The notes beneath the pieces were generated by a model. The model made no database searches, was not told where the DNA came from, and worked only from the letters and a program-made list of their open reading frames with translations. The position numbers were made by a program, and so were the translations under genes. This document shows, piece by piece, positions 406-44,199 of a DNA stretch of 64,000 nucleotides; positions within the stretch are counted from its first letter, which is position 1, and each line of letters opens with the position of its first letter. Source of the DNA: Tubiluchus corallicola (taxonomy: Eukaryota; Animalia; Priapulida); contig JAQGDQ010000324.1 of the NCBI GenBank assembly GCA_030141605.1, forward strand, positions 62,001 through 126,000, written 5' to 3'.

Positions 406-546
406 CTGAATTTCATCAATCGTATGAACAATAAACATGTCGTTCAAATCCTCTTTCGTTCCATCCATCCAATTATTAAACGGTGCAGCGCGTTTTGCAA
501 ACTCGAGATGCAGCTGATCGATGCTTTCAAGAATCTTCTCTTGTTC
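406..546 (-). CDS. ACTN: Alpha-actinin coding exon 15 (141 nt)
   Basis: tatag|[47 protein letters not shown]|gtatg. Confidence 0.95.
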
Positions 547-3500: not shown

Positions 3501-6500
3501 GCAGAAATTGCATCACCAGTATACATATTCAAACATTTTTGTGTATGGACATTCATACATATACTGATGTATAACGTGTTGGCAAATCATTATTTTTGAA
3601 ACAGAAATCTACACTGGGAGCCTGCCATAGCAAAATTTTATTTGAAGACAATCTCTGAAAAATATTTTTTGGAAAAATATTGGTTCACGGTGATTATTTT
3701 TGCAACCCTTTCCGATTTCCCAGACTTTTTACCATATTATCTTTTTCTCTGACTTTGTAGGATACCCTGTATTTTGCAGGACTTTCCCTGACCGTAAAAA
3801 CCTTGGTTAATCCTGAGGTAAAAGGACACATTTAGGCAAGCGCAGGTAAAAACTTACTTGAGTTCATTAGCGATTGCTGTAATTTGTTCAACACGTTCTT
3901 GATGCGCCGCTACTTCGCTTTCGTAAGCTTCGTGCTTCTTTTTGTGCGACTAGGTAGATAAAAAACAAATATATTTCAAGTTACTAAACTCGCTCTTACA
4001 AAATACTAAAACCGTACTTACAAACCATAAAAAACACATATAACGGGTGGCACAAAAAATGTACCGACGTTCATACTGCACTAACATTAGAAACAGGTAC
4101 CCTACAGTTGAAATATCACAGCAGGACATGACAGTACACTAACTTTTAGCAGCGAAAGTTAAACATTTATAGTTTTAGATGTTTATAATAAAAATTTAAA
4201 TGCCGGAACAATGTCAGTTAATCATCAATTGTGTGCTTGCAAACCAAAATCGTCCACAAGTCGGCATATTTAAAACTACATTATGATGCTTGAAAGTAGA
4301 ATGCACCAATAATTTGGTCAAATGTCAATTTTTTTATAAAAACAAATGCTAAATATATTGCACTTTTATATTCTAGCATCAAATTATCAAGAAAGTGTTA
4401 AAAAAACACTAAAATTTAATTTTATAACCCTCTACGCACTTTTCTAGCTAGAAACTAGTAATGCAATTGTAAAAAACTCGTATTTTCAAACTCTGATAGT
4501 AGCTCGTGGAAGGAGTCATTTTCCTTAGGTTTTTTCTGTTGTCAAGCCCAGATCTTCGTCTGGAAGAGCCATCTATTAGATTTAAACAAAACTTCAATGT
4601 GCTCTTGCTAAGTCCATAGCAACCACACTTTCGTACGGTAGTTAACTGTTTTGTAGAAATGCGACGAAAAACAATGGCTAACTTTAACAGCAATTTTCTC
4701 AAGATTACGTTTTTCAGTGCATAGTAAGCACCTCAACTTCAATGTTGATTATCTCAGCTTAGAAATAACATAGAGCAATGAGCTTGGTATGAAAATGATC
4801 CTCATGAAATGGAGATCCGAAATCAGAAAGTTTCAGCACATTTTATTGTGTAGGGATGTCACGAAATTACAGAATCCGAATCTACACCGAATCTCACTGT
4901 CAAAATAATTTTCGAATCCGGATCGAAGCCGAACCTCAGTTTAAAATACTTTTCTCGAATTTGAATCTCAATGTTCAGATTGTTCTTTCAACAGAATTCC
5001 GTTTCGAATCTATGCAGTTTTGAACCAAATTATAGCAGATTGGTAAGACAGAAGTGTTTTTCATGAAGATTACAGATGACCTGTCTGAGCAGCATGTTTG
5101 ACTGTTATTCTGCAGTACTAAAGACTATACACGATCTAATCATTTTGTGACAGATTTTTTATGACTAACAATATAATGAGATCTGTTAGTCAAAAAAATC
5201 CTTGGAGTGCCTTTACCTACGCTCCATAAGTCCGAGTAATGTGAATGACAAAAAAACAAGGCAGTTTAAACCACAGCATGTGTTGTTAGCGAAAGAAAGT
5301 TCTGTCAAAGTAATACAAGAAATCTTAACATTTTTGTTGAAAAAGAAGTTAAAATCGTAATGTGATGCGTGTTTTCGCATAGGATTTGATGAAGTTGGAC
5401 ATATGCCGAAACTGAATATGTTAATGTGGGGCAAAATTATCAAAAAAAAGGCAGCAATTTCAGGATTTTTCAGGTAAATGAGCATATAATGCATTTATAA
5501 TAAAGCGCTACCGAATCGCCTCTGTTGCCAAAGCTTAACCAGATTTTTTTTCAAAAGTCTCTGCTCAATCGGGCTGGATCTAAAGCAACTTAGAACGTCA
5601 GCGAATTGAACAGGATCAAAGCTCTGATTCGGATTCGAAGCTCCGGTTCTGTCGAAGCACCGTGACATCCCTAGCCCCCGATATAATGCCTGTTCAGAAA
5701 ACCTGGTTTTTAATTTTAGAGTTTGTGGCAGTTTGGTTCACAAAAACTATGAGAATTTGGCAAAAGATACATTTACTGAAACAAAAATAAAAACCTTCAG
5801 ATCTAAAAGTTTGCTCTTGCGATAATCTTCATTCTCTAGGTAACTGAGTTTGTTCATCGTCCAATCGTCGTGACTGTTTGCTTTCTGTCTGAACTTCTTT
5901 GCAAGATGATCTAGTCGCTCCAGTCTAGGAAAAAATAGTAATCGGAGTCACATATTTTAGTTTATTTTAGTTGGCAACCCAAAAATGTCAGTGGTGTGGG
6001 AGGAAAATGTTTCTAGAGCCTTGCAAACGTTTAAAACGGATATATTTAAAGCACAAGAAAATGCTCCACTTACATAAAGCTTAAAAAATTCGTATTGAAA
6101 GTTTATGCCACTTACATACTGGCTTTTTGCATACAAAACTTACATACCAGCGTTGGCAGTAACGCTGTATAAAACATGTGAATTTTAACTCCCGCAATGA
6201 CCATTAGAAGCGGCCATCTTGACAACAGGTCATTCAAAACAAGTTTAGGTAACACCAGGTAATGTTTGAAAAAATAATCAGAATGATTCGTAGCTCACAC
6301 GTCACTAAGATTTTAAATTACTGTATCTTGTCAGTAAGATTAAAAACATGTTTTTTGGTTAGTGAGTGGTGCACCCTGGAGGTGAGTCAATGACATTTTA
6401 CCAATTGGTGAAAACATTTTAAATTACTAAGAGTTTTCTTTTCCAATTACACAAGTTCTTTCACGCATGGAAAGTTTTTGGTACATAGTTTAACATTTCC

Positions 6501-9500
6501 TTTTCTTCCCTTTATTCGCATTCTGCATGTATGACATCGTGTAAAGGAGCCGTCGGAACAGTATTGCTGGAGATTTAAAATGGAAACAAACAAAAAATCC
6601 TTTCAACACGAGTACGATATATGCATAAATTCGCTATAAAGTAATACAATTTTTTAAGGCCATTTTTCTGAAACCTACTTCAGGTAACCGTTTTCTTGTC
6701 CTTTAAGTTTATTTCCAAAAATATCAACACTTGTAATAATTGCGATTTTACTAGTTCATAAGGCCGGTGAACTTTATTAGAGATTTTCAAATTACAGCGT
6801 TTTGACAGCTATTAAAACTTACTCCATCACTTTTGCATAACAGAACCAGAGGTTTTTAAAAGCAAGGATGCAGTATAGTGGTCGTATTATTCAGTAAATT
6901 AATCGTGTAAATATTTTTACTCAGTAATTACAAACATGGGGTAATGATTTTCAAAAATATTTAACATAAAGCGAAGGCTGAGAAGCCGAGTGAAAAATTA
7001 ACACAGTTTGATATCACACCTCATCAATTCAGAAAGAAGCCACTCCTCAAAACCTTGCTCAGATTTCTCTAAATCCTTCCAACGATTGTTAATATCCTGC
7101 AAAGATGTTCACACATTTATGTTGCACATTCTCAAAAGTACAGCAAGTCCTCGCTTAATGACTCGCCGCTTAGCGACCGTTCGTTTTAACAATGCTAATC
7201 CAGTGGTTCTTAACCTTGTTGGAGGTAGCGAACCCCACCAGTTTCATATGCGCATTCACCGAACCCCTCTTTAGTGAAAAATAAATGTGATTTTTTTCAA
7301 ATTCAAGACATAGATGTGTTTTTTACTGGTACACAAAATGAGCCATGCATGAACATCACCTTGTTCTCAGGATTTTCTCAGGAATGAGCTTAGGATTTTT
7401 GAAGCAATCTGCATGACAGTGTTGGTGCTCTTGCAAAAGCAGGGTCATCACGAATTTACACGATAATTCAAGTGTGTCCGGACCTCCGCGGCGGAGGCTC
7501 TGCCGAACCCCTGAGATCGACTCACCGAACCCCTAGGGTTCGATCGAACCCAGGTTAAGAACCACTGTGCTAATCAATTAACACCTTTTTCGCATAACGT
7601 CGCATGTTTCGCGCTTTAACGATGATTTTTTTGCCTTACTTTAAACACTAATCTTATTTACAGCGCTTCTACTCTATCAAGAAGCCCGCCACTTGACCCA
7701 GATCACAATAGCATAACTAAATGGACAGCAGACAATCAGCTACAGCTATAGGCAGGCCATGATTCATTGCTTTCTCACATTTAAATAAAATTCTTTTCGA
7801 CAAAACGCAAAAGTTTCAGCTGATAAAACTATCTCTTGTTACAGTGTTAAGTGCCAAGCACTACTGACTTTGCTCCTGGAACGCAACTGAATGCTTTTGC
7901 ATTTTTCTTACGGAAAACAATGTTTCGTTTAGTGACGCTTCGCTCAACGTCGCATTTAGATGGTAGCCATTAGCGTCGTTAAGCGAGGACTTATTGTAAA
8001 TGCAAAATTGTGCATTTCGTCAAATACAGCATATACTAGAAACTTTAGCAGATATACTATAAGCATGTAATGCAGAAAATAGGCAGAGACTTATAAATCA
8101 GAATTTACTACAGCCAATAAATCATGTGATTGCAAATAGTGCAATTACAAGTTTCATTGTTGTGCTTGGCTAACTTGCTGGCCATTGAGAAATTCCAATT
8201 CTTACACATTTTGTTACAATGAGTTTTTGCAGGTAAAAACAGCCAATGGATCTATTAAGAGGGGTTCTTAAGTTTTATGATTATCACAAGATCATTTTTG
8301 CATTTTCCACATTTTTGGTAAATTTATTAAGTGTTTTAGGTTGTTTTGCATAGTAAATGAAGCATTTTTCATGGGGCACCAGTGGATTTTTTCTTGTGGT
8401 TACACTATTTGTATACTTAAAGAAAAACAGTCAGCATTTTCAAATAGCTAATGAAATATCCAACCGGAATATGTTATTTATGCAAATGCAGGACAAACTT
8501 TTGTGCGCTAATGATATTTGTAAAAAAATTGTGTAAAATTTCATGTGGCAGTAGGCCACAGCTTAGCTAGAACAATAGGAGTCCACGGTGTTTGTGACAC
8601 GCAGCTGCTATGTTCATTGTCCTGCTGTAGCTTATAACATCACCCTGCCAGCATGGGCATTGCTATGGTGACTGAGCAATTTTTTGACTGCCATCTAGGG
8701 GCGATTTAAAAAAATAACAATGCAAGTATGTAATTGCACCACTTGCAGTCGTATGTATACGTACAACTATATTTTTTCATAAATCCAACAAATTCTTTCT
8801 TAAACAAATCGTCAAAGGATTTCAGCCGTTTGTCAGGCTGTGCGCACCATGTGAAGTTGCAGTTAACAAGAAAACAATTTTCAGGTAAAAAATTCCACAG
8901 ACAAGCAGCCAAAGGGCAAAACTGGATTTAGTTTTTCTGATAAAACATTTATGGAATAAAAAACAACGCAAAAAGAAAGGTAACAGCAAACTTACACTTA
9001 AAAGTTTCCCCTCGCTCGGCATGAACAACGGCCGGTTGCTCAACCTCAGTTTCGTCTGTATGTTGTTAAACATCGTCTCCAGTCCGGCTTTCTCCTGTAG
9101 CTTTGGCGGCTTGTGCTCACGACGGTAGTCACGGAACTCCGCCTGCTTCTGCTGCAAGGCAGCCATGGTGTTGTCCGAGGTGCGGTCTTCCAGCCACGGT
9201 ATCGTCTCGTCGATCCACTTCAGCAACTAAACAGTAAGTGATTTGCTAATAACGTGTTTGTTTATGATTTTAATCGGTTCCGTAAGCAAGCTTTAATAAT
9301 TGCACAGCTTAGAGTTTTTGCTGCATATCAGATATTTCGACTCGATGCACTGCTACTACAATACCTACTGTTGCCCCCTATACCTATAATTTCATGTATT
9401 GTTAACCGTATAAGTGTAATTACACTCATACCTTGGCCTACCAGACCTCACTTTCACAGATATCGGAAAACTCAGACGAAATATGGTCCACTAAAAAGTC

Positions 9501-12500
9501 CCGCATACTACGGAGTGTGTCCGTTGTTTCGCGAGCTGACGGCTAGATGGCGGGCCATCACTTCGTTTACATCCCAGCAGCGTGTAACAACACGTGTAGC
9601 TTGTATGTCGGCGTGTTTCATGATTTAGAGTCAATTATGCGGAGTTATTTGAGTGAAATGCTGGCCGTTTTTTGTACTTTTGCATAGAAGCGGCCCGTAC
9701 TAGACGTTTCCGAGACAATTAGGTGATATAGCGCCCACTATATTAGCTTAGTATCGGAAAATACGGACAATCGGCAAATTCCGGCCAATGTCTCCCTGCT
9801 TTCATTCGGCAAACCGACAAACATTGAATTCAATTCGCTAATAATGGGTAATAATTTCATTATTAATAGTTAGTAATAATGGGTAGTAATAATTTAATTC
9901 ACTTATGAGTAAGCAATCTTTTGTGCACGCTTTTTTACACTGCATTACACGTTCATTAATAAACATTTCAGAGTTTCAGCAATTCATGATGACCGTGAAA
10001 AGTCAAAAGTTATTTGTGCCTTGTAACACGGGTTTGTGTGAAAGGACAACGCCATGCTTTTGTTGTTGTTGTGGATGAAGAGACGTTTATTTACACCTGC
10101 CGACTGCTACAGCATTTAGTTATGCTACTCAAATAAGAGTATCAACTCAGATTTAATTAACATTAGTCAAAAAATCCAATTTAGCTGTGAGATTATCTGA
10201 TACCGACATTTGCTAAATTGTGACAGAAAAGTTGTGTTTTGTGTTATACTGTAGAAATCTCAGTAGGGTTTCCAAGAGTAAGGTCAGGTGATTACAGTCA
10301 CGTGAGAGTACCAAGGTTCCCAGGTTATGGGCAGGGATGTTACCGAAACTGAAATATTTTTGCAAAATCAACTATTATTAAAACTGAAAGAAGAAAATTC
10401 AAAAATAAATAGGAATAAAACATTTTGTTTTTTGTTTGTCTGGTGTTACTTGTTGTGATGTAAAATTATTGATAAAAAAACACAAGGATATTTTATAGTA
10501 TAAAACCTCCAGTTTGATGGAGTGGCTTACAATAGAAAAATTAATGAGTTACAATGTTTTTGAATTTAAGTATTCCTACTGATTAACGTTTAAAGATCAT
10601 AATACTTCATAAAAAATAAACAAATTTTGTAGATCTTTTGTTGCCTATATTTCATAAATTATAAAATTCAACATGAATGTGTTCAAATAAATCCAAACGT
10701 GCTTTGATATTTCGGTTGATTATACCTGGAGATCCTAAAACTTCACAGTGGATATGCCGCAGTACTGAAGATATGCCACCTTGCTGTGAAAGGCACGGCA
10801 CAACTATTATTGTTTTTGTTTTATCGAACTATTTTAGCCAAGACTTTTCAACAGTTTTTGACATCTAGGAGAAAATTTTGTTTTGGTAACATCCCTGGTT
10901 ATGGGTGCAAATAAGCCTTGACCTACTGCAACTGCACGTGCAGGTAGTAAAACACTGGATCTAAAATGGTTTCTTATACTTGCATCACTGCTGTTGTTAC
11001 TCGTCATAAAGGAAGAAAAGCCAGCAGTTTGAAATTCATTACACAGTTCCAAGTTTGAGAAAAAATTTTCATTCCAACCTGACGAGGATTTGAACTCAAA
11101 ACCTCTTACATGAGTTAAGGTCAGCTAAGCTTCGCTATACAGGAGTATAATAGCATGCCAGACACATATGATGTAATCCTTAAACTAAAGCCGAAATTAA
11201 TTGCTTACGTCACTCGTCAGACTCTCGTATTCTTGCATACGTTGCTCGTTGCCCTGATTCACTGCCAGCACACGACAAATACGATTTGCCGCCGTCTCAG
11301 CCTGAAAGAAAAACCGCCATTAGCGAAAATAATGATAATAAACAATCAATAAATAAACCAATTTTGGCATTTATTAAAATTTTATATGAGCTTGTTGAAT
11401 AAATGAAATGGAGATGTCATATCTTCCATTTCAGATGCGTTCAGTTGTGACGTAGTGCACATGTTCGTGGAGCTCATGGATACGCACAGTGGTAAACTTG
11501 AATTTAATTTTCAACTTAAAATTTGACGAGCTTTTGTGTATCACACTGTACTTCAATTTTCGCTTTCACAAAAACATGCAACACTCGTGGAATGTTTGCG
11601 CTGTTCAAAATTATGTTCAGTCTCGATATCATCACTAAATGGTTTCGCCCATCGTTAATAGTTTTTAACCTATCATTTAATTACCAGAAACGTTTTGGAA
11701 TTATTATAGGTGTTAAAATGTATACTTTTTACCGTACTTCAAGATGGGATAGGATGTGAAAAATCATCCTGTTTTCCTTTAAGGTTAAAATATTGCTGTA
11801 CATGATACCTTCTGAGCACCAGCAAACGCATGGTAGTAGCAAGAGACGTAGGTCATCACGGCTCTCTCGTCCGGCTTAACTGTATTCAGCATATCTACGC
11901 ACATACAAATGAAGAACAATAATTATTGTTTGTATAGTTCTACATTTAAACTAAAATGTTTAAGAGTCTAATCTAGTCTAATTTTACAACTTGGTTGGTT
12001 CAAATTTATTAAATCAATACTCAAGACATCAGATGCTTCGCAATTTATGCAATAGGTAGTTTAGTGATGGGCAATTCTGAAATTTTGGATTGTTATTATC
12101 TTGCTCTTGTAATTTGATATCACGATTAATCCTTTGTGGCAATTTTTAGTGCTTTAGTCATATTTTTCAATGATTGCAGTGAAATATAATCTACAACATC
12201 TTCACAGCTTCCTCATTGCCTGCCGCTTTCGTACACAGAAACTATTTCTATAGGCACATACCTGCTTTTTCGTCAACTACTCTAGACCACGTCACTACAC
12301 GCGTCACATGTCAACGAATTTGGAGACCACAGTTGGCAACACTGCGGTTCACAATTGTGTGCATCGCGGAATATGAGAAAAAAGAAGAAAAAATGCAACG
12401 ATTCGGTTTATTTGTGCCAACATACTTCCTTTTAGACAGTGTGTGTATATTTTGCTCTTGATTAATAGAGTTTCTGTTCAATCATCAAATAAATTGATTT

Positions 12501-15500
12501 GTACAAGGTTGTAATCGCAATTAATTTGATTATCTATTAATCGCCCATCACTAAAATAGTTTATAAAAACGCAGCCACCAGTACAGCTCAGATTTACGTG
12601 CAAACACATATAAACACAGCAAGAACACATTTTAATCGCAAATATGCACAAGCGTACTAAGCAAGCAACTTTATGTGCAAAACAAAACACAATCTCCATT
12701 TTTTATTGTCGTGGTTAAGCGGGCTCGACAAAATTTGAATGTTTAAAAGACCGACTTGCCAGTGAAAAATGGGAAACTTTTACGAGAAACGTATCATATT
12801 TCGAAACAATTGATCATAAAAATTAACATGTAATAAAAAAGATATGTAAATTTTATGATATTGAAAGAGAATACCAAAATGCTACAGCATAGGCCTAATT
12901 TTGGATACATCAAGTATAATATCGGGCTAGAGCATAGACCTAATTTTGGATACACCAAGTATAATATCGGGTGGCGCAGAAAAAATGCACCAAAGTTCAG
13001 AATACCATAATATTAGAAAAACAAGTGCTGCTCTATAAAGTTGAAAATTTCAGTTTTGCATTACAATACATAGGCTTTTGGCTGCAGATGTTTTAATGGT
13101 TTAGTGGTTATAATTTATGGGTGAAAAGCTTTTGCAAACTGAAAACTTAAATACTGGAACAATGTCACCTAATCATCAATTGAAAAAGAAACAGCCACGT
13201 TGATATGCAGAGCACTTAACAGGTAGCAGCAAAACAATAAAGAAGTCAACCTGTTTACATCATAGTTTTCATCGCAGAAAATGAAATGGTAATAAAAATG
13301 TGTTGTCAAGAAAAAACAGGACTAGATCGGCTGGGTGCAATGTTGGATAAGATGCCATTTCTAAACTTACTTTCATCTTGCACTTTTACACTTTGATTTT
13401 AAAATTTAAAATGAAATAAAACTTCCAAAGGGGTACGAGAAACAAATTAATAAAGTTCGACCAAAGTAAGAATTGAACTCAAATATGCATTTGCCGCTTC
13501 ACTGTTAGTATACCTTCAGCGTCCAACATCTTCGGGATATCAAGATGCTTCTCTGCTACCTCAAAAGCTAAGTTCAGGTTATCGCCTGGTTGATCCTGGT
13601 AGAAAAAGCAGACTCCACAGTTAGTGTGATCACGATGCATACAACATCTCACTGTACTTGCAATTAATAGAGATTATAAATCAATCTCTCTCTCTCTAGC
13701 ACACACGACAAGCTAGTTGACGGGACACGTCAATTTGTAACGTGCGTCAATCATGCAAGAACTTGATTATAAAACTGTAGGACGACATGATAAAATTACG
13801 ATTTTGAAATCCACATGACAAATGAAATAAAAGATGCAGAAATCGATTTGCATCACAATTACAAACTCAAGCAGGTTCATCATACAGCATGCTGTAGAAA
13901 AATTCTCATTGTTTTACAATAAAAATCCCAGCAGAAACTGTTTTGTTTTTTGCAATCATTTGTAATAACTTTAACGATTAGAAATAAAACCTTCAGCTAT
14001 TTCACTATCTTGTATCTTGAGTCGGCAAATCCTGTACAATATGCGAATGAATTTTTTTTTGCAAAACCAACTACACATTAATGGTTCTTACATTAGATCA
14101 ATATGAACTGATGATGTTTAATATGAAAGAACCAAAATCTGTACCACAGAATTTGCTAATAAACGTCTGTTTTTCAGTAAATCAGGCCATTTGTACCTTT
14201 GCTTACACAAAGTCATTCGTACAATGTAAATATACATATAATACCAAAATTGTCATCATTACTTATTAACGATTCTAGTTCAAGATTATCAATTAATTAT
14301 GGAATGAGGCAGAGCCCTCAATCAAGTTTTTTGAAACCAAATTACACCGAAGAGAGAAATGTGCAAAAGTCAGTAATGGGCGTGGATTCGAACCAGTGAC
14401 TCCCGGATAACACAGAACCCTATGTGATCAATGGAGGCCTTAATTAAGTCCTAACAGCTCACTTATGAGGTTATATTACATTAAAAGATATAATTGCTTA
14501 ATTAGAAATACTGTAACGTGTATAAACGATAGTGCAGTCATGAATAATCAATTTTTTCGAAAGTCGATCGATTGTGGCATTTGACTAAGTGATCGACCAT
14601 AAATTACATGATCCATGATTGGTTGACAGAGTAAGAGCAGATTTTGAACACTTCACTACTCATTTCTGCTATTTAATTTCAGTAAGGCAAAAAATATGTG
14701 CAGCGTCAATAAGAGATAGGATAACATAAGAGATAAAATCACAGTCAAAAGCTTAACCTTCTGATTTCGTGCTGACGCACTACTGTCAGATATTATGATC
14801 GATCAATAGTATACGATCGATCAGTAGTAGATCAACGATCATTTTTAAATGTGGATGATTGATCATAGAAATGAAACAGTTTCCCAACACTAATAAACAA
14901 ACACTTGAACATGCTGGATCAGTTCATGTCATTATCATTAAATTTAAGAATTGTCTTGATGAAAAAGGGTCGTGTGGTGTTTGTGGTTATGGCAATTGAC
15001 TTGCAATCGGAAGGCACCTGGTTCAAATCCAGGTCCAATCCAAACTTTTTTCACGCTTCCTCACTTCTGACCCATCCTGGCAAACTGGTTTCAAAAATCT
15101 TATAAAAGAGGGTTTGTCCCATCTGTAATTTAATCTATTAAACATATTTGCTAAACTTAATGAATTTTACGTTAAAAAGAACACGCAGAAATTAAGATGA
15201 CAAGCAATCCCATGCGTTATTGAACATTTAAGCAGAAGTGGTTTTATTTGCAAATTAGTCGACAAGCACAAAGTCGTAAAAACTGCAAAACATATTACAT
15301 GCCATTAAAAGTCTGTAAAATGCAACAGAAAAACCAGACTTTGCAGCCAGAATAGCAAGAATGTCATCCAAGAAACAGACGACAAGTCAGATCTTTGCAG
15401 ACAGACAGCTGTTGTTGCGCATGTTAACGACAATAACATTCATAATGAAGGAAGGAACATTTTTTTACGAAAATAACTATAGCTCAGCAGCAAATAATCA

Positions 15501-18500
15501 CACAAATAACACCGTCATCTTTAAATACTAAAAAGCAGGGCTGGAAATAAAGTAGAAAAATTCCATCTACAATGTTCTGTTGAAGATTTCCCATAGTACT
15601 AAAAAGTATGGTTGGAAATAAAGTAGAAAAATTCCATCTACAATGATCTGTTGAAGATTTCCCATAGTACTAAAAAGTATGGTTGGAAATAAAGTAGAAA
15701 ATCTAAATTGATTTGTTGAACATTTAGTGTTCGTTAGACGTAAAAAATTGAAAGAAAAGGGAAATTTATAAGCTCCAAAATAACACAGAGTAAACAATTT
15801 GCAAAAGTTACGTCAGACGATGAAAACTGACTGGCACAATTATTGATTTTTCTACAGGTTTTCTATAGAAAGAGAAAGGCAAGGTTGTTGATTGTCGCTA
15901 CACAACAGGAAGCTATTATGACTGCATAGTTTGGTCACGCATTTAACACGAGAACGAAACCGTCTTAAACCAACCCGCGAGAGTGAGTAATAGTCGATGA
16001 GCTCCGGCCGATGCCTGTGTATGAGCGCACACAGCCCCAGACCGTTTTTCCAGCTGAAAGATACAGTGAAAGAGATAAAACAACAGTTGGTGCATGCAAG
16101 AATACAACAAGGACCACAGTGTGAAGAGCGACAATACGAGATGCACGTGAAATGGGTTTCTGTCAAGCGTTTTGGAAGACATTTTTGATTTAAATGGCTG
16201 GATTCTAAATAAAACACTGAAAAAATCTCTGATAAATGCATTCATATCTTGGTTTGCCGGACCCCGCTTTCACGGGTATCGGAAAATTCGGACAAAACCT
16301 CTGTTAAAAGTCCCGCATGTCCGTTGTTTCGCGAACTGACCTATAGTTGGCGGGCCGTGACTTTGTTTACATCACGTACATCAGTGTAGCTGCGTGTATA
16401 TCTCTACATATAAAAATATAGAATCAATTATGCGTAGTCATTTGAGTCAATTGCCGACAGTTTTTATACACTTTTCCATAGGCACATTCCATACTAGATA
16501 TTTTTGAGACAATTAGGCGATTAATTCTGCATTACCTTGAGTCTGATACATGACAATCTACTGTATTAGTTTACTATCGGAAAATGCGGACAATCGGCAA
16601 ATTCGGACCAACGTCTCCCCGCTTTTGTCCGGCAAACCGAGATATGAGTGTAGTTAAACACGATACCTAACTGCCTGACTAACTAGGTAACATGCTGTCC
16701 AAGTCGACCCCAAGGAAGAACTATTACGGTTTTACGTTTAAGAAATCAAAAGGAGAACTAACATTGAAAATCTATTATCGAATATTTTCAATTCTTTGAG
16801 TTTGATCTGCCTCAAAACTCGATACTTCAAAATTACTGAGAATCACAGCAGCACAATATGGATATCAAAAATATCCCGATAGATTTTAATAACCTTGCCT
16901 CTTAAACCATCTACTTTACTGTGATTATAGATAAAACGAATGCATATTGCAAATATCAGCATACGGATTTTCAAATCGGATTTAACTAAATTCAAAAATG
17001 TTGACTCAACAGTTCTAATTCAGAATATGTTCATTTGTAATTCGAAAAGTGCTACAATGTCTTTCCCGGCACAAACACCCATTTCACGTGCAATTAAAAT
17101 TAAATGCATTAAAAGTTCATGACAACAAAAGGCTGAAAACTGTGAAAGTTTTTAAGAAGCTGAAAGAACGAATGCATGTGAAGGACGATGTACCTTCCGC
17201 AGGTCATCATAATCAATAAGTTCGGGACGGTGGCGATGTATGAGGGCGCAAAATGCCAGCCCATCCTTGAAACTAAAATAAAACATCTTTTCATTTTTAC
17301 CACCGGCATTTGCATTACTGAAAAGGTAATCTCACACGCCCCAATATTATTGTTACTACATTTTCATCATTGATAAAATATGCCACAAGCGCTTAGAAGC
17401 CCCAGGTATCATAGTTTAATGGTAGAAATATTACACACGTGTCTTAAATATGATGTCAGTTTTTGGATTTCGACATGATAATCAAGGTTGTGGAGTTGGT
17501 ACATTAAACTCCTGACTCTGGCTCCGACTCCTAAAATTTTAGAAGCCCCAACTCCCGACCCCAACTCCGAGTTCTGCTTTAAATAATAGTTTGTAGTACT
17601 CTCAATATTTAGCTACAGTGGCACTCTATCACCACTCGAAAAACAGTCTAGCTGCATAGACACCAATACAAAGTGTCCCAAAATCGGAAATTGTGTATAA
17701 AAGTAAAAGTTCAAGGTAACTACTGCAGACTCCAACTCCACATCCCCTAATGATAACCATAAATTTCTTTATGTTTTTAGCTTACTGAGAACGGTTACCA
17801 CTTTAAATGAAATGGTGAGAAGTCTTGAAAGTTGATCTTCTCACAAACTTATGACAAATTATGTTGAATGAACTATTGGTCACACTTTTTGGGAATAGTA
17901 AAGTTTGGCACAGTGTGTACTAAGCAATAGAAATCACGCAATGATAGACCTAGCTAATAAATGGAAGAGCGACCAACAGGACAATCACTTCCGCGTTCTT
18001 TTATCTGTCATACTACGTCTGGCTACGTGTTCTGCTAAAAGTGCTTACATTCAGAGATTGCTAAGACAACTGTGGGACTTCAATATCTCATGTTATACGA
18101 TTACTGTTATCATTATCTGTAATAAAGAGAAAGGTGCCAGTCCTTCTACAACTATAAACATAACAAGTAGGTCTCGCTGTTGAGGGATGCATACTGGCTT
18201 GGCGCACCAAAACAGAACATCAAGGAACACAAAACAAAAACGCCAGGCCCAGCATTTAGCTGTTCGATATAAAACAAACTTGCTTACAAAAATGATATTT
18301 CTAATTATTGTTTCTAGTGCACAAAAACGAAGTAGTGATGACATAAAAGTAGTAAAAGCTCTTTGATCACAAGCAAGTGTTTTATCCACGTGAAGCAAAA
18401 ATAACGAGCCAATTACGCGAAGTTATTTCAGTGAATTACTGAAAGTTTTTATACACATTAAAATAGGAGCAGCCCTCCTATTTTGTTTCTGAGCGAATTA

Positions 18501-21500
18501 GGCGACTTATTCTTTTAACAGTGAGTCTAATAAATGGTGCCCACTGCATTAGCTAGTGGGTCCTTTGCATTTTAGCATTAACTGCTGGCAAAATGCCAAG
18601 ATAACGTTGCATCAATATGGCAGAAGTCAGAAACAAATAATGATTTCATCTCGTACCTCATGTGAAAGTTCTGTATGTTTACATTCTTGTAAGGAGCAGT
18701 CTTTCGTTGACACCATAACAGCAAGCCTTCTTTTGCTGTTGATTCTAGACAAATGAAAACAGAAATGATATCATCAGAAAAACCAGCATGTAAAACAACT
18801 ATATCATGAGCTATAAAACAGTTCAAGTCTGTCGCATACAAGTTGCAGTATTAGTAAGCACAGTTATACCTCTCTACCTGACTAGAAAATTTTCTGAGGC
18901 AAGAAATTTTAAGCTCTACAACATTTACTACGAGTTGATTTACAGTCTAGTGTGAACGCTTCAACCAGTTACTTTCGACACTTCTCGCGGTGACAGTGTC
19001 ACCTTGCACTTACTGTCGAGAGAGTAACTTTCGGCAAGTTTTGCTTTCTAGTCTGAACAGGCTAGCGAGTTTCTCAGTGAAAAAACTCAAGTATAAGTAT
19101 AAGTTTATTTACGATTATTACAACAAAAAATTTTAATTACAGTACATCACAAAATTGCAATATAAAAAGAATAAGCAAGGTAGAACATACAGCAATAAGC
19201 ACTATTACATCGTTACAAGATACATAAACAAAGTAAATTAAAATTAAATGAGTCAAAACTGAAGTTTGGAAATTAAATTAACCACAATGAGATAAAACTG
19301 TTCTTGCATTTCTCTGTTCCGCGTCTAGGTAAGGGGAGTTTCAAACTGTGGCGAGTACAGTATCTGGGCATCTGAACTCGCTAGTTTGAACCGCCTTAAC
19401 GACGACAATTAGGCATTCATTTAAAACATTCAAATCTTAAATTTTTCAGTTTGGCTTGAATACACTAAGACATTGCGAAGTTACTAAAAATAGTAGCCGA
19501 CAGATCGAAATTTCATGTAAGCATATAACATTTCTTTAGAAAGAAAATAACAGTACCAAGTTTCACTAGACAGATAAATGAGAAAGAATGTAGTTGTAAA
19601 TACTGACTTTAAACAATAGGAGCAATTTGGTGCAATTAAAGTTTTTATGATAAACAAGCATGGGTCACAAGTCATTTATTTCACATAATGATACCTTCAA
19701 TGCTGATGTCTTGTATAGTAAACCTGAGAATAATGGTCCAAATCAACCCAAGTGTCATTTTTACGTTCCCGTCAACAATTTCTGCAAAAGAGAAGGTTTT
19801 TGTTTGGTTAGGATTAATGGAGAAAAAAACCACAAATTTTGAACTTAACAATAATCAGGCATATGTTGTTGGAATGTAATAAAACTAAGGCTAATAACGG
19901 CAAGTGAACTTTGGCATTCGAAATTTGTAAGTAAATAATGAATAAGGAATTGCATTACAGCAATAATTACAACCTAATTCACAAAAGAATTCTCTTTAAT
20001 CTGTTTATAAACATGATTCCTTAGTGAATTAAGTACTAATACCTGGTAATCAATGTCTGATTAATTATCATTATTTTTCACTTTGGAATAGAGTTGAAAT
20101 CCAGTATTTAATGGCACAACCTACTCAACGCGATGTTTGAGATGAGCTACCCTCTGAGATGAGCCACTGAACTGGCAGCTGTGCCTCGGCCACATTTGAA
20201 TACATAATTACCGAGCAGTCCTCGCTCAACGAGCTCAGAGCAAGCATTGAACCTACATGGGCACTATCCACCGACCAGTCTCGGTGTGGCTTAACTTCAG
20301 TCGAGAAGCACGCACATGCGCATGACCACTCATGTATGAACAGCGTGTGCCCACATTCACTCATCAGGCTTAACTCTATTTTTGTGAAAGATAGGTATTG
20401 GCCATTCTTCACTACATTTTCTGACAGTAGCAACAGAGCGACTCGCATGTTAAAATGTTAAAGTGGCTCAGACAGCATTAGCAGACAGATGGCTAGAGAG
20501 CAAGAAATATGTGCTTTAACTATTAGGAAACCGATTACAGCACGTTCCAGCATTTCTACATATAAAGACAGATTAATTCCTTGGTCCCATTACAAGATTG
20601 TCTTATTAAATTGTTGTGTTTCAATGACAATTCTAAACGATTTGATGATAATTTTAAACGATTCGACATCCATCATTGACACAAAAAAATCACAGACGGA
20701 TTCATTGAAGGTAAAGTTTTATGTTTTCTTTATGGGTTTTACCATCAGTGCATCAATGACAAATACCTGTTTGTTGTTTGAATTTCTTACAAATCATAAA
20801 CATGACAACCCACCGTGTCTGTTTTATAAATACAAATTCATATCATCTTGAGTACTAAACAAAACATTTGTTAAACCAGTGCTATAAAACACCTATGCAC
20901 AACTAACTTGATTAGTTCATCGGGTAACTTACCTTCAGCACCAATAGAAACTAGGTACACGCCCTTGCTGGCGATGAAGTCCAGAGCTTTGTTGACGTTG
21001 GCTATTTTGTGGAAGCGCATTTTACCCTTCTCCGGCTTCGGCAGCTGTTCCCCGGATATGACTTCCAGGAGGAGCATGAGTTTGAGCCCGTTACAGAAGT
21101 CCTGCCCGATGTCCTCGATCTGGGTGCCCGCCTTGCGTAGATGTGAGTTGCACCATGCTGTGAATGTCTGAAGAAAAAACAGATTTTTGATTATCTGGAC
21201 CGAGTACTGGTCACATCAACTGCTGTTTTGTACTTATTATAACTTATTTTGAGTCTCGCATGATTAGCATACAGCAAACTGTTACTCCTTCAGGAAAACT
21301 CCAAATCAACCAGTATGGAATTGGATTTTGGATTTTACAGAATTGAACTGGAACTAGTTACTATTTATTAGATTAATTTTTGTGGGTTTACAGGTAGTGA
21401 CGACTGACCACATATGCATTACTGCTAAGCATTACCAAATCGTTAACGCAGGTTGGCATGTGTCGCTAGATAATTCAGTAATGGAATGCATGAGTGAAAT

Positions 21501-24500
21501 ACTCGATTGTTTCCACAGTCCACATGCTGACAAGCAGACTTAAATGCAACTAGAAAACATGAGAAATGAATCAGACATTAAACCGTATAACGATATTTTA
21601 TCAAACCCACGGCAACGATCGAGCAATGCTTGTCAAATTGCTAATATATGGGGCACGATCTAGCGACACATTGCTAATACATGGGGCACGATCTAGCGAC
21701 ACTTGTCAACATACGGGTAATGATCTACTGATGCTTAGCAGCACATGGTCACCACTAGTAAAGCCACAAAACTTTAATGACTATATGTAACTAGTTCAGG
21801 TTCAACTTTGTTGACTTGGAGATCTCAATCCTCAGAGGTTGACTTACAGTTCTTAGATAAGTTTCATAATTAATATAAACCTTTTCAGTGAAAGATAAGT
21901 TCATATAAAAAAACCATCACTTCTAAGTCCATAACAACTGATCAACTTGTGTTCACACTGTTGAACAAAAACAACAAAACAAGTACGTTCAGGCGTCCTT
22001 TGCTACATAAAAACATTGAAACCATAAAGCAAGCTAATGCATCTCCTTAATGCCATAGAGATGTGTTTTTGACGGCAATTGACTGGAATTTGAAACTGGC
22101 TCACAGGTGCAAACGAGCAAATATCTTAAAGGACAAGAAAAGGGGTACCTGAAATAAGTTTCAGAAAAATCGCCTTACAAATTATATTACTTTATAGCAA
22201 TTTTATGCGTATATCGTACTCGCTTTGAAAGGAATTTTTGTTTGTTTTCCTTTTAAATCTCCCACAATACTCTTCCGACTATGCCGTTGCATGACGTCAT
22301 ATATACACAATGTAAATCAGGAGAAGAAAAGGAAATGTTAAACTATGTCCCAAAAAACTTTCCATGCAAAGTTATATTACTTAGCATTTCGCTTACATGT
22401 GTGAAAGACTTATGTAACTAGAAAAGAAAATTATTAATTATCTAAATGCTTTCACCAATTGGCAAAATGTTGCTGACTCACCCTCAAGGGTGCACCAGTA
22501 ACCAAAAAACCTATTTTTAATCTTATTGACAAAACACAGTAATTTTAAATTTTATTTAGTTAGTGACGTGTGCGGTACGAATGCTTTGATTATTTTTTCG
22601 AACTTTACACAATGTTATCTAAACTTGCTTCAAATGTTTCAAAATGGCCGCGTCTAGTTTGAGTTTAAATTTACATCGCGGGAGTTTAAATTTACATGTT
22701 TTATACAGCGTTACTGCCAACGCAAGTCCTGCATGCAAAAGGGCAGAACGAATGGGTATAAAATCTCAAGACAATTTTTTGAGCTTTATATAAGTGGAGG
22801 GTTTTCTTGTGCTTTACCATCTTACTTCAAACTCATACTTCAGGTTTGCTTTTGCCTTTGCCTTGAGAAATAACAGTTCACACTGTCAGATGTATTTGCT
22901 TTACCACCTGATTCTAATAAGTGGCAGCCTTGCTAGCAATATTCTCCAGTATCATGCAAATATTTGACATAGCAATGTTACATACATTTATGTATCTTAT
23001 ATACATATCAACTCACTGTATTATACCAATTAACAAATATTGAAAACATTAACAAGCATTTAAATAAATATTAATGAATATTGTGTTTCAGCAAAACTAT
23101 ATTAAAAGACAAAATTTGCACAAAAGCAATTCCAAATTATTAATAACACACAAAACTTTCTTATTATAGAAAAAAATTAATATATATTCGTATAACAATT
23201 AGCTATCTTATTGCAGTAAAAGCTAGGTAAAATCTAGTTAAATAAGAATTATGCTGACTTAACTGCTGAAATACGGTTACTCCAACCACATACATGTGTT
23301 TTATGTAGGTTGTCACATATTGTATTACAGAAAAAGAAAAATACACAAGGGATGGGTGCAAAAGTACAAATATGAATGGAAAAACTCCTCAAGGCCAGTA
23401 AGCGTGGCTTACAAATCAGCCAGTACAATTTTTCTTTCATGCAAAACTGAAGCTGGGGCATCAGTTGAACAATTGCACCATGTAATATTCAGATATTTAA
23501 AAGACTCACATGAATAATCACACTATGTAATATTCAGCTATTTAAAATACTCACTTGAATAATCACACTATGTAATATTCAGCTATTTAGCTATTTAAAA
23601 GTCACTTGAATAATCACATCATGTAATATTCAGCTGTTTAAAAAACTTACTTGAACAATTGCACCATGTAATATTAAGATATTGAAAAGACTCACTTGAA
23701 TAATCACACTATGTAATATTCAGCTATTTAAAATACTCATTTGAATAATCACACTATGTAATATTCAGCTATTTAAAAGATTCACTTGAATAATCACACC
23801 ATGTAGTATTCAGCTATTTAAAAGATTCACTTGAATAATCACACCATGTAGTATTCAGCTATTTAAAAGATTCACTTGAATAATCACATCATGTAACAGT
23901 CAGCTATTTAAAATACTCACTTGAATAATCACGCTATGTAATATTCACCTATTTAAGACTCACTTGAATAATCAAACCATGTAATATTCAGTGAGTTGTG
24001 TTACTATGTGCATAAACTATGAACACGTGAAGGTAGAACGACAGTGATGAATGTATAATCTTAGCCTACCCACAAAAAAACTATAATCACCAGATGCCCC
24101 TATTATAAATTTTTACAAGCATTTATTAGTAGTCAAGACGTTGAACTCGTATCTCAGAGATCGGGGTTCTAACGCAGGTTCAAATAGTATTTTCTCACAT
24201 TAAATTTTCTTTCTGTTAACTAAATGTGCGGCCCGGATAGCAGAAGGCCTGGGTTCGAGTCCCAAAACTTTTTTAGATTTTCTAATTCAGTAATTCAAAT
24301 AAAATAAAATAAAATAAAATCAAAAACTTATTATTTTTCCCAACACATAACGTTAGTTAAAATTTAGTAACGTATATAGCCTCACGTGGCAAGAGCCCGT
24401 CAAATGGGAAGGGGTGACGAAGAAGATACATTATCGAATCAGCCACCCCAACTCAGTTCTGTTTTTCGCATGGAGTGCCGACGATCACTAATCAAAAATA

Positions 24501-27500
24501 ATAATTAATATTAATATTATTACGTATTAATACGTAAATGAATTACGTACTTGTTTTCACCTATATAACATTAAGCATATAATATATAATTCAGTACTGA
24601 ATAAATAATTTCAAGCAAGTTACACCAGGAAAACTGTGTGTATGTTATTTTTCTCCGCAAACACCTCATATGCTTTTACTGTGATGAATACACTAGAGAA
24701 GAAATCACCTAAACAAAACTGGGTTAAACTAGCAAATCATTTTTAAATATCTTACTCGGCAGAAAAGGTAAAAAATCTAGACTCTAAATGCGTGGTCAGG
24801 CATTGAACAATCTATGCCTAAGAATTGTGAGAATAAGGAAAGGAAATACAGTCAGCAAGTCTGCAGCTGAAACAACAATAATTCCAGGATACAGAGGAAC
24901 GTACTTTGAATTGTGGACATACAGCATTGCACGATCAATTTTCCTGTGACCAAGCCTGGCAAAACCACGAATATTAGCTCCATTAGAGAAAGCTTAACAC
25001 CCGTATGCATAATCATTAATCAGACCAATCTGATTTAATTCACCCATTCAGGGGGAGGAAAATTAACAGTTTGGGGTGACAGTAATTTGAGGAAGCGACG
25101 CGGATAAACCTTTGATCACGAAGTTTACGTGTTAATGACATAGGTGACACAGTGTTTATATAATTTGCAGGTAAGAGGCATGCATGTGGGTCAACGCTCT
25201 TTAAACTTCACAACACTGGCTTTACTATGTTCATCTGCTGATAATGTGCAGCACAACAGAGCCTCAGAACCCCGGGGGGCAAAGCCGGCGGATTTGTTTA
25301 ACGTTGTTCTTTAAGAAACGGTAATGGTTTGGGTTTGACTGATCTCTGGCAACCATTAAGTGCAGCAAGGGCAGTGGCCACTGATAAATTACAACGTTAT
25401 TTTGCTGTATGTCGAGACACCAACGATCTCAAGCAGACTACACAATTATTGATTTTCTGAAACCAAACTGCACCGAAGAGAAGAAAATACGAAAAGCGCC
25501 GGATTTGAATCAGCGACCTTTAGATCATAAATCCAAAAACATGACAACTGGACCACACAGCACCTTGTGATTGTGACGAATCTAAATTCGATCCTAATCG
25601 GTCAAAACTAATGTAACTGTTAGTTTACTAACACAATCTTGAGTAATTACTGACTAATTAGATTAAGTTTTGCAATTAATTTAGTGTCTAGAATAACTGA
25701 AAGATAATTAATTAATTATTTTGTCCTAATCACAAAACCTTATGTGGCCTAGAGGTTATGACATTGGACTTGTAATTTAAAGAAACATGGTTCAAATCTT
25801 GGCTTTTCACATTTCCTTTTGGAAAAGTTTGGAAACGTAAGGACAAAAAACTCAGAATTAAAATGGTTGAAATTTCTTTGAATAAAATTACTGATATTTA
25901 TAAAAGGATGTAAAATCAGTTTTAAAATTCATACAATTTACAGCATCTAGTTATTGAAAAAAATGATATGCAGGTCTATGTCAAAAGTGTAAAAAATTCA
26001 CACATTAATTCAGCAATTTCGAAAATGATTTTGTCAAAATTGTAATATAACCTGTTTACCCTTTCTATTCTTACACACAAACACTAAAAAATTCTGCCGC
26101 CAATCTATAATAAACATTTCGTCCATTGGCTTAGCATAATAAAATGTGTCACCGTATGCGTGATGCAATGTTAAAACTTCAACAAATTCTGTTTACAAAT
26201 TCTGCACATGTAAAGAAATAAATAAAGGTGTGATGTGTGACAAATGGGCCATTTTGTGACATACTTATTGCTAATAATGACGCAAATTCATAAAGCAAAG
26301 GTAATGGGTAATAAATTTTATTTAACAATGGCAATTCGGTGGTGAACTTTGCACACATTCTCTGCACTTAAAAGCCATAATAGGTACGTTTTACTTTTGA
26401 ACCAAATTACACAATAATAAATGCCTTAAAATGTGTTTGCCAATGATCTCAAACTAATATGCAGTAAGACGAGTGCAGAAGATGAATAAAAAATCATAAA
26501 TCATAAATGTGCCCAAAAAAAATTTAAATCATATTTTGCACAGAAAAAGAAAGACGAGCCTAATTCTACAGAGAAAGATTGTATAGAGATACATCAAATG
26601 CACATTAAGTGACTGAATGTATCAATGCTGAACACGGTGGTATTATGAGTATGAGTCACAACAAAGGCATACAAACATTGAGCAACCTTTGTGCCGGAGT
26701 TTGTTTAATCAAAGCACACTTACATCTAACCGGTAGCGCTTCAGTGGTGCAGATGGCGGAGACCAAACTCCCAGCCAGATACTCATTACATCACTATATC
26801 TATGACAAATGCTGACATATTAATCCAACTGATTGATTTCCATGCATGTTCCACTGGACTGTTCCAATAACATGTTCCATTATTATCCACTGGATTGACA
26901 GACAATACTAAGCACATTCCGAAACTTTGAAAAAAGCTCTAGGTCTGCTAAGGCTCATAACATCGAAAAAAAGATGGCTTTAATTTCCGTAACGGAATTT
27001 CTGGGAAGCTCACCATTCGGTAGTTTGCCTCTCACAAAAGAAAATGCAATATCTATCAAAGAGAAGGTTGCTAAAGAGAACCAAGAGCACGCAGACAACA
27101 AGAAAAAGATGAAGAAACATTCAAAAGCTCGCAAAAACTAAAAGAGAGATGAACAAAGGTCCACGATTCCACAGGATGATTCCAATTCCACCCAGTCACC
27201 AAGAACTAGCAAATCTCTTTCCCAAGTGCTCATCAAAAACCAGCAAACAGATAACACAATGCCTGACGTCCTCATTTTTCTGACTAGACCCGGCACATTG
27301 CCACCTCTGACTAGATGAATTCAGGACTCTTGAAAAAAGCGAAGCGACACAAGGAAATTGCAAATCTAAAATAGACTAAATCTAGGACGGTCACATGAAC
27401 GTTAGACAAGCAAAAGGCTTCGCTAATAATATTACAAAAATAAAGGCAAGTCATAGATAACGGTTCACACGTGCACTCACTCATGCTTCAAACCTAGCCG

Positions 27501-43379: not shown

Positions 43380-44006
43380 TTAAGAATTGAAAATTTTGGA
43401 GACGTTTTGGCATCTACATTTCTTGATGATTTTTATCCGCTGGGTAAAAGCAGCCGGCGTTTGATCCGGGCATTTGAGCTGCACGTGGCGCCACCTAAAC
43501 TTGCTCGGCTTGCAGAAGGAACAAGACTTGAACGCTTGAGTGTCCTTGACGAAATGACCACGCTTCGGTATGAAAAACGAATTGCATTGACCATAGCAGA
43601 ACCGGTTCACGATGCTGACCGATTCACAGCCTTTGCGTCGAACTTTTTGGCGGAGTGGTTGCGTTTTACACCAGTCCCGTTTCAGGTATTTCTTCTGAGT
43701 AACGATCAGTGCTCGCCGACTGGATCTGAGAATCTGATTTCCAGGTGTTCTGACGAAGACATTTTTCGTCCGTGACGACACGCTCATGTCCGGTTGATGA
43801 CCTTTCAACACGAAGTCCGGCTCGCCGAGAATTCTGATGAGACTGGTACTGTTGAGAAACACAGGGCCATTGTCATCAAGAAATGAATTCTCTTCTGGTA
43901 TTGTGGCCACTCTTTTGTCCAGGTTCTGATCTTTACCATTTATAGTCGGGCTCAAGAACAAAAATGATGATGCGTAGATGATAAATGTTACTTCTTTGCT
44001 TGATAT
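43380..44006 (-). CDS. GREM: Gremlin (DAN-family BMP antagonist), main coding exon
   Basis: KYLKRDWCKTQPL...NRFCYGQCNSFFIP...FKSCSFCKP...CRC cystine-knot signature; acceptor tttttcag at 44007 gives an in-frame signal-peptide-like ISSKEVTFIIYASSFLFLSPTING. Confidence 0.95.
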   Translation of the reverse strand: MSSKEVTFIIYASSFLFLSPTINGKDQNLDKRVATIPEENSFLDDNGPVFLNSTSLIRILGEPDFVLKGHQPDMSVSSRTKNVFVRTPGNQILRSSRRALIVTQKKYLKRDWCKTQPLRQKVRRKGCESVSIVNRFCYGQCNSFFIPKRGHFVKDTQAFKSCSFCKPSKFRWRHVQLKCPDQTPAAFTQRIKIIKKCRCQNVSKIFNS

Positions 44007-44199
44007 CTGAAAAATACGTTAATTGTTAGCAAATGATTAGCAAGCCACTGGCTCACCAGTTGGTTAGTTAACTGCTAAGTTGACTAGAAGATCCAACTAG
44101 ACGCGATTAGTGAATCCTCAAAGCAAGGTGCCCGCATTCATTTGGCCTGCGAAACAAAACAGGATTGCGTCTGTCAGTCCACTGGTCATTCTGTTTGTC

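What the first reader, a model, noticed from the sequence alone, without database searches (positions are those of the whole stretch)
15975..17272. Duplicated, mutually exclusive CH2 exon in alpha-actinin with muscle-like and non-muscle-like versions
Seen: two intact 79-nt exons with identical phases encode [26 protein letters not shown] and [26 protein letters not shown] (18/26 identical, many synonymous differences, so both appear to be under selection). Including both would frameshift. Known, from memory: this exon corresponds to human exon 6, whereas the described mutually exclusive actinin exons are 8a/8b and 19a/19b; [15 protein letters not shown] resembles muscle ACTN2, and GLAF resembles ACTN4 and Drosophila Actn. 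This CH2 region includes the reported PIP2-binding segment. Inference: a single-gene invertebrate may make muscle and non-muscle actin-binding domains by an exon switch at a site I do not recall being described.
Basis: partly seen in the sequence, partly recalled or inferred. Interest (0 to 1): 0.8.

Follow-up and report, generated by a model that had tools for sequence, protein, structure and literature searches.

The report
Either-or exon pair in invertebrate actinin
An actin-crosslinking (alpha-actinin) gene of a likely priapulid worm has two intact copies of one small exon, both seen spliced in RNA and predicted to work only one at a time; a matching pair occurs in another priapulid, molluscs and bryozoans, so it is probably an old, likely tissue-regulated splice switch, but the idea that it makes 'muscle' and 'non-muscle' copies like those of vertebrates is not supported.

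Summary
Observation confirmed. Two 79-nt AG/GT exons (6A 17272-17194, 6B 16053-15975; 18/26 aa identical) each give an open 544-codon frame; using both or neither stops in exon 7. Contigs of one RNA run join exon 5 to each copy. The gene is the orthologue of one of two Priapulus caudatus actinins, whose RefSeq isoforms X1/X2 differ only here. Ten spiralian cases (molluscs, bryozoan, four genomic contigs) carry a matching F..K / W..R pair, in the opposite order where order is visible. An RBFOX-type GCATG lies just upstream of the second copy in 5 of 5 pairs, against 1 of 61 other acceptors. The muscle/non-muscle reading rests on one residue, the PIP2 arginines are unchanged, and 'single-gene' fails for Priapulus. 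No tissue data exist here. The pair is already in automatic database models; I found no paper on it, but Lek et al. 2010 was unreadable. The scan earlier noted an exon-6 duplicate in shark ACTN2 and an exon-5 pair in urchins (not checked by me).

The parts
17194..17272 (-). Exon 6A, upstream copy, F..K type; 79 nt; CH2 helix plus following loop (ACTN2 residues 180-205)
   Evidence: AG/GT, open frame; joined to exon 5 and, by loose ends, to exon 7 in X2; 22/26 to Priapulus isoform X1; Pfam CH
15975..16053 (-). Exon 6B, downstream copy, W..R type; 79 nt
   Evidence: AG/GT, open frame; joined to exon 5 in X2; 23/26 to Priapulus isoform X2
16093..16098 (-). TGCATG, RBFOX-type element 45 nt upstream of the 6B acceptor (binding inferred)
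   Evidence: Only TGCATG between exon 5 and 6B; same position class in 4 of 4 other 79-nt pairs
16054..16159 (-). 104-nt AG-free, pyrimidine-rich zone before 6B (6A has a 12-nt zone and a weak tract)
17077..17092 (-). 5' arm of a perfect 16-bp inverted repeat in the 6A-6B intron
   Evidence: Unique in the window; 1 of 200 shuffles reaches 16 bp; role unknown
16142..16157 (-). 3' arm of the same inverted repeat, 104-89 nt before 6B
18657..18744 (-). Exon 5 (88 nt), single copy; holds most of the mapped PIP2 segment
13514..13595 (-). Exon 7 (82 nt); site of the premature stop if both or neither copy is used
11809..11894 (-). Exon 8 (86 nt), single copy: the known 8a/8b switch is absent from this gene
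406..33149 (-). Alpha-actinin gene, exons 1-16 (exons 2 and 3 fused); runs off the window
   Evidence: 82% identical to Priapulus caudatus XP_014664565.1 outside exons 6 and 8

Best explanation
This is a pair of duplicated exons in the CH2 domain of an alpha-actinin, each seen spliced to exon 5 and predicted to be usable only alone, which likely arose in an early protostome ancestor and is likely switched by an RBFOX-family splicing factor. Shown: either copy gives an open frame, and both or neither gives a stop in exon 7. Inferred: such transcripts are removed by nonsense-mediated decay. Inferred: RBFOX bound just upstream of the second copy represses it, so cells rich in RBFOX and its partners (muscle or neurons) would use the first copy, here 6A, and other cells 6B. 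Inferred: the swap leaves the mapped actin and PIP2 contact residues alone and fine-tunes CH2 through one aromatic residue (Phe or Trp at 180) and the charge of the loop behind the helix, with the W copy at net +2 in all 12 pairs.
For: Splicing and frame. Conservation of each copy across species: window A/Priapulus X1 22/26 and B/X2 23/26, against 18 and 16 crosswise; six differences are shared. Spread: 10 spiralian pairs, namely 4 RefSeq isoform pairs, 2 gene models that read through both copies and 4 genomic contigs with tandem AG-79 nt-GT exons. With copies labelled by residue 1, residue 26 is Arg in 12 of 12 W copies and Lys in 11 of 12 F copies, and Lys in 16 of 16 reference proteins seen with one form. 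All 12 W copies form one clade in the exon tree (bootstrap 86). GCATG within 50 nt upstream: 5 of 5 second copies, 0 of 5 first copies, 0 of 13 other acceptors of this gene, 1 of 43 single-copy exon-6 loci; background 4-7% of 50-nt windows. RBFOX represses an exon from an upstream UGCAUG in C. elegans egl-15 (PMC3585155, passages). RBFOX2 and RBM24 control human ACTN2 exon 6 (bioRxiv 10.1101/2025.10.28.685214, passages). Charge: W copy more positive in 10 of 12 pairs. Mapped actin-binding sites lie outside 180-205 (PMC13055992, passages).
Against: Order is F then W here but W then F in 6 of 6 spiralian cases where it is visible, so sequence type and position (with its GCATG) cannot both be inherited unchanged. 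The exon has 26 residues: a priapulid-only duplication is not rejected (p-AU 0.127) and bootstrap 86 is weak. Actinin exons 5, 6 and 8 duplicate repeatedly, and convergent duplication is common (PMC9741552, passages). The GCATG pattern was found after the fact among five motifs looked at, in loci that are not fully independent; one of the five is GCATG without the leading T; the two 82-nt W/W pairs lack it. PMC3585155 says the motif alone does not set tissue specificity. There are no tissue, binding or biochemical data. In 12 of 26 loci mapped, a single exon 6 lies between exons 5 and 7, so one origin needs several losses.
Confidence: 0.58

Rival explanations
1. Priapulids and spiralians duplicated exon 6 independently and converged on the same F..K / W..R contrast and on an RBFOX site before the second copy.
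For: Opposite order. A priapulid-only clade is not rejected. Both states of residue 1 occur in single-form actinins, W in 9 and F in 7 of 16. Neighbouring exons duplicate repeatedly; a different 82-nt W/W pair exists in L016 and L032.
Against: Arg26 goes with Trp1 in 12 of 12 pairs and is absent from 16 of 16 single-form references. The tree holding all W copies together has the best likelihood found, 7.9 units or more above the priapulid-only tree. Same exon borders and same motif position in both groups.
Confidence: 0.3
2. One reading: 6B is the muscle exon (ACTN2-like) and 6A the non-muscle exon, so that splicing does what gene duplication did in vertebrates.
For: Both priapulid-type W copies have Leu7, as most ACTN2/ACTN3 do and no ACTN1/ACTN4 retrieved does. 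RefSeq names both Priapulus isoforms 'sarcomeric-like' (an automatic name). Human ACTN2 exon 6 is under muscle splicing control.
Against: One residue only; Phe7 in 11 teleost actn2b proteins and all 10 spiralian W copies; Leu7 also in intronless hits L003, L020, L047, L071 and L097. 6B is no closer to ACTN2 than to a starfish actinin. The RBFOX site sits in a repressive position before 6B. Priapulus has a second actinin gene.
Confidence: 0.22
3. The second copy is a near-neutral or decaying duplicate, a minor noise isoform or an assembly artefact.
For: Only one RNA library was available, with 30-letter overhangs and no displayed 6B-to-7 joint.
Against: 14 synonymous against 8 non-synonymous codon differences with no stop; both copies conserved in Priapulus; both in DNA run X1 or RNA run X2; 6B differs from X2 at only 1 of 80 bases (p 0.03).
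Confidence: 0.03

Closest known systems
Alpha-actinin exon 8a/8b mutually exclusive homologous exons (ACTN2, ACTN4, fly Actn, worm atn-1; PMC4494069 passages)
   Same: Tandem duplicated exon in the actin-binding domain, one copy per mRNA, old and conserved
   Different: A different exon (79-nt exon 6, first half of CH2, not exon 8); this gene has one exon 8
RefSeq isoform models of Priapulus caudatus XP_014664565.1 / XP_014664566.1, and of Mytilus, Littorina, Babylonia and Watersipora actinins
   Same: The same exon swapped, with the same F..K / W..R contrast; the Priapulus gene is the orthologue
   Different: Automatic models with no study of function; spiralian order is W then F; spiralian copies differ at 3-7 residues, priapulid-type copies at 8-10
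Human ACTN2 exon 6 inclusion controlled by RBFOX2 and RBM24 (bioRxiv 10.1101/2025.10.28.685214, passages)
   Same: Probably the same exon (numbering recalled); skipping shifts the frame and destabilises the mRNA; RBFOX involved
   Different: Described as a single skipped exon with RBFOX2 binding downstream and activating, not as a duplicated pair
ACTN1/ACTN4 exon 19a/19b (PMC4550062 passages)
   Same: Either-or exons making tissue forms of actinin
   Different: EF-hand, calcium sensitivity, chordate only; no such clear functional switch is evident at exon 6
C. elegans egl-15 5A/5B and unc-32 7a/7b (PMC3585155 passages)
   Same: Mutually exclusive exons set by RBFOX on UGCAUG with a tissue partner
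   Different: Other genes; binding shown there, only inferred here

Membership tests
Tandem duplicated, mutually exclusive homologous exons | Two adjacent homologous exons of equal length and phase with intact splice sites | tested here: met
Tandem duplicated, mutually exclusive homologous exons | Each copy is spliced into mRNA | tested here: met
   5-6A and 5-6B joints in X2 (one library, 30-letter overhangs); Priapulus RefSeq X1/X2
Tandem duplicated, mutually exclusive homologous exons | Copies are not used together | tested here: inconclusive
   Joint use gives a premature stop and no 6A-6B joint is listed, but contigs drop rare forms
Tandem duplicated, mutually exclusive homologous exons | Both copies under purifying selection | tested here: met
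   Synonymous excess; 22/26 and 23/26 to Priapulus copies
Actinin exon 8a/8b or 19a/19b switch | Duplicated exon is exon 8 or exon 19 | tested here: not met
   Maps to ACTN2 180-205; exon 8 single; exon 19 is outside the window
Muscle versus non-muscle actinin isoform switch | Tissue-biased use of the copies | not testable with these tools
   One RNA run, contigs only, tissue not on record
Muscle versus non-muscle actinin isoform switch | One copy carries residues diagnostic of ACTN2/3 | tested here: inconclusive
   Only Leu7, which is not universal in muscle paralogues
PIP2-site switch | PIP2-binding residues differ between copies | tested here: not met
   R163 and R169 positions are in exon 5; R192 and K181 are the same in both copies
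RBFOX-regulated exon | Conserved (U)GCAUG close to the exon | tested here: met
   5 of 5 second copies against 1 of 61 other acceptors; found after the fact
RBFOX-regulated exon | RBFOX binding and dependence shown | not testable with these tools
   Needs CLIP, knockdown or a minigene

The most novel reading that the evidence does not exclude
The exon-6 pair is a third ancestral bilaterian actinin switch, run by RBFOX from the intron between the copies. The RBFOX2/RBM24 dependence of human ACTN2 exon 6 is its relic after loss of the second copy. In priapulids the two protein versions have traded places relative to the regulatory element, so the same splicing signal selects the opposite CH2 version from that in molluscs and bryozoans.
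Probability: 0.2. Interest if true: 0.75.

Novelty: new variant of a known kind. Interest (0 to 1): 0.5.

Why it matters
The papers I could read list two either-or exon pairs in actinins (8 and 19). A third, shared by an ecdysozoan and many spiralians, would add an old layer of tuning to the CH2 domain that gates actin binding. It gives a direct test: molluscs have many tissue RNA sets, and a position-linked RBFOX site predicts which copy muscle or nerve uses. The reversed order in this gene is a natural experiment on whether regulation follows an exon's position or its sequence. If the vertebrate ACTN2 duplicate noted earlier by the scan is homologous, it would explain why an essential frame-shifting exon of human ACTN2 needs muscle splicing factors.

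Tried and rejected
No whole genome is held, so a second actinin gene in this species could not be sought. The run search listed no RNA holder on record; X2 came by species label. Lek et al. 2010 (Mol Biol Evol 27:773) could not be read; I recall that its abstract mentions frequent exon duplication in the actin-binding domain, so it may already cover exon 6. Paper searches that showed no description of this pair, at listing level. Supplements of PMC8373072, PMC9741552 and PMC4494069 were not read and may list fly, worm or vertebrate events. A search with exon 6B plus intron flanks gave 4 hits among 20 candidates, all vertebrate. No second exon-6 form appeared among the vertebrate cluster members listed (15 of 704 in the largest cluster), so the earlier shark ACTN2 note is neither confirmed nor contradicted. 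A recalled ACTN1 disease variant at exon position 25 was not found in two reviews and is dropped. Steric exclusion was rejected: the intron is 1140 nt, and about 190 nt even if the 16-bp stem forms; no such stem lies near the intron ends in the 4 other pairs. The AlphaFold model of Priapulus X2 was poor in the actin-binding domain (pLDDT about 40-70, pTM 0.34) and shows only a helix at 173-186 followed by a loop. My first gene models had exons 15 and 16 off by one base; one search is the corrected one. An early note miscounted codons; one search gives 14, 8 and 4.

Full report
Observation. The minus strand holds exon 5 (18744-18657), two 79-nt exons (6A 17272-17194, 6B 16053-15975) and exon 7 (13595-13514) of an alpha-actinin. 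Both copies have AG/GT ends and phases 2 and 0. They share 18 of 26 residues and 46 of 79 bases; 14 codons differ synonymously, 8 non-synonymously and 4 not at all. Both match Pfam CH. Profile searches of 9227-33200 find two copies of exon 6 and one each of exons 4, 5 and 8. A model of exons 1-16 is open for 544 codons with either copy. Both copies together, or neither, give a stop in exon 7, 65 or 60 nt before the next junction, a position expected to trigger nonsense-mediated decay (rule recalled).

RNA. The run search listed two runs and no RNA holder on record. Run X2, guessed to be RNA, has contigs that skip six introns at canonical ends. Two of them join exon 5 to 6A (depth 106) and to 6B (depth 49), and loose ends match 6A joined to exon 7. 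None of the 4 joints listed is 6A-6B or 5-7. The overhang on exon 5 is 30 letters, one short of the tool's bar for a bridge, and the 6B contig has 28 further letters whose place is not displayed. X2 differs from the window at 36 of 543 bases in other exons, so it is a different population or a close species. Depth of contigs cannot rank isoforms and the tissue is unknown.

Which gene. The best hit of exon 10 is Priapulus caudatus XP_014664565.1 (75%; 300 hits among 339 candidates, 120 listed). Outside exons 6 and 8 the window protein is 394/479 identical to it, 314/425 to a second Priapulus actinin (XP_014667400.1) and at most 74.9% to the other 18 references I chose. A quick tree groups the window with the first Priapulus gene (SH-aLRT 100) and both with the second (95). 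The animal is therefore probably a priapulid or close relative, and its lineage probably has two actinin genes (inference; no genome held). Priapulus RefSeq isoforms X1 and X2 differ at 10 residues, all in this exon: 6A matches X1 (22/26) and 6B matches X2 (23/26).

Spread. A search with the Priapulus X2 exon region (1146 hits, 120 listed) and cluster look-ups show isoform pairs that swap this exon in Mytilus, Littorina, Babylonia and the bryozoan Watersipora, and gene models of Nucella and Tegillarca that read through two tandem copies. Isoforms listed for insects, Acanthaster, Gordionus and cestodes show one form. A pattern scan of metagenome contigs (22 of 64 parts scanned; 120 loci stored) gave six distinct contigs with two copies: four with AG-79 nt-GT pairs (L019, L038, L043, L045) and two with a different 82-nt W/W pair (L016, L032). 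L019 is closest to Watersipora; L038 and L045 look spiralian; L043 holds only the two exons and is counted with them by exon sequence. Of 26 loci mapped, 12 show a single exon 6 between exons 5 and 7. Labelling copies by residue 1, residue 26 is Arg in all 12 W copies and Lys in 11 of 12 F copies, but Lys in all 16 reference proteins I saw with one form. The W copies form a clade at bootstrap 86; holding them together gives the best tree found, but a priapulid-only duplication is not rejected (p-AU 0.127). Order is W then F in all 6 spiralian cases where it is visible and F then W in the window; the Priapulus order was not seen.

Regulation. GCATG lies 11-45 nt upstream of the second copy in all five 79-nt pairs with DNA (window, L019, L038, L043, L045). 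It is absent from that zone in the five first copies and the 13 other acceptors of the window gene, and present in 1 of 43 single-copy loci (37 distinct; many with only 300-nt flanks); background is 4-7%. Fisher's p is 7e-7, but the pattern was noticed after the fact among five motifs, the loci are related, and the two 82-nt pairs lack it. RBFOX proteins repress egl-15 exon 5B from an upstream UGCAUG, though the motif alone does not fix tissue specificity (PMC3585155, passages). Human ACTN2 exon 6 needs RBFOX2, bound downstream, and RBM24, and skipping it destabilises the mRNA (bioRxiv 10.1101/2025.10.28.685214, passages); that this is the same exon rests on recalled numbering. If the motif represses, RBFOX-rich cells take the first copy: W in spiralians, 6A (F) here. 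The motif follows position, while the tree follows sequence type, and this conflict is unexplained. A unique 16-bp inverted repeat joins the two ends of the 6A-6B intron; it is not seen in the other pairs and may be an old insertion's ends.

Protein effect. Alignment to 4D1E places the exon at ACTN2 180-205 (the offset is confirmed by R163, R169 and R192 falling on arginines). The mapped PIP2 segment is 165-181 and the platform is R163, R169 and R192 (PMC4259493, passages); R192 and K181 are the same in 6A and 6B. Mapped actin-binding sites lie outside the exon, and CH2 acts by steric and charge control of CH1 (PMC13055992, passages). W copies have net charge +2 in 12 of 12 pairs and are more positive than their partner in 10. 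A modest tuning of CH2 packing and surface charge is the likely effect (inference). The structure prediction was too poor in this domain to add to this.

Muscle likeness. 6B is 21/26 identical to a caecilian ACTN2, 20/26 to a frog ACTN1 and 21/26 to a starfish actinin; 6A is 22/26 to ACTN1 and ACTN4 and 20/26 to ACTN2. Trp1 is shared by all vertebrate paralogues and Gly6 by ACTN1; Priapulus 6B has Ala6. Leu7 alone tracks ACTN2/3, yet 11 teleost actn2b proteins have Phe7, as do all 10 spiralian W copies. Since vertebrate paralogues arose by later gene duplication (PMC4550062, passages), Leu7 is at most a convergence.

What is known. Passages of PMC4494069, PMC8373072, PMC9741552 and PMC4550062 name only the exon 8 and exon 19 pairs. 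Eight searches showed no paper on an exon-6 pair at listing level. The key survey, Lek et al. 2010, was seen only as a reference and may cover it. The pair is in automatic RefSeq models. Earlier notes of this scan report an exon-6 duplicate in elephant shark ACTN2 and an exon-5 pair in urchins; I could not confirm the first, and saw exon-5 variation in Acanthaster, Watersipora and L019.

Verdict. A real and probably old mutually exclusive exon pair, a new variant of a known kind. The broad spread, reversed order and position-linked RBFOX site are the interesting parts; the muscle/non-muscle, PIP2 and single-gene claims are not supported. Interest 0.5.

Noticed in passing
window 17092-17077 and 16157-16142: Unique perfect 16-bp inverted repeat near the two ends of the 6A-6B intron; longest among the ends of 15 introns; could loop out about 935 nt or be the ends of an old insertion.
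   Followed up: partly
L019:6506-6405 and 5994-5911 (minus strand): A bryozoan-like actinin with two copies of exon 5 as well as of exon 6; Watersipora X1/X3 and Acanthaster X1/X2 also differ at the end of exon 5.
   Followed up: partly
L016:4537-4940; L032:1407-1324 and neighbour: A different exon-6 pair, 82 nt with one extra codon, both copies W type, no GCATG; L032 also has two exon-8 copies. Animal group not determined.
   Followed up: no
window 11894-11809 and 21167-20933: This gene has a single exon 8, so it lacks the known 8a/8b switch, and exons 2 and 3 are fused.
   Followed up: yes
window 55788-56333 (minus) and a second similar reading frame further upstream on the same strand: Small heat-shock (HSP20) reading frame; a second HSP20-like fragment appears in the translation.
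   Followed up: no
window 43383-44018 (minus): Single-exon DAN-domain (gremlin-like) reading frame.
   Followed up: no
window about 16651-16240: High-copy inverted-repeat element inside the 6A-6B intron, with relatives near 9860-9430 and 2930-2790 (depth over 6000 in X1).
   Followed up: no
proteins P0149 and P0267: RefSeq models of the nemertean Tubulanus repeat the whole actin-binding domain twice with identical sequence, perhaps an assembly or annotation artefact.
   Followed up: no
L038 and L045, 6 nt after the second copy: [quoted passage not shown]
   Followed up: no
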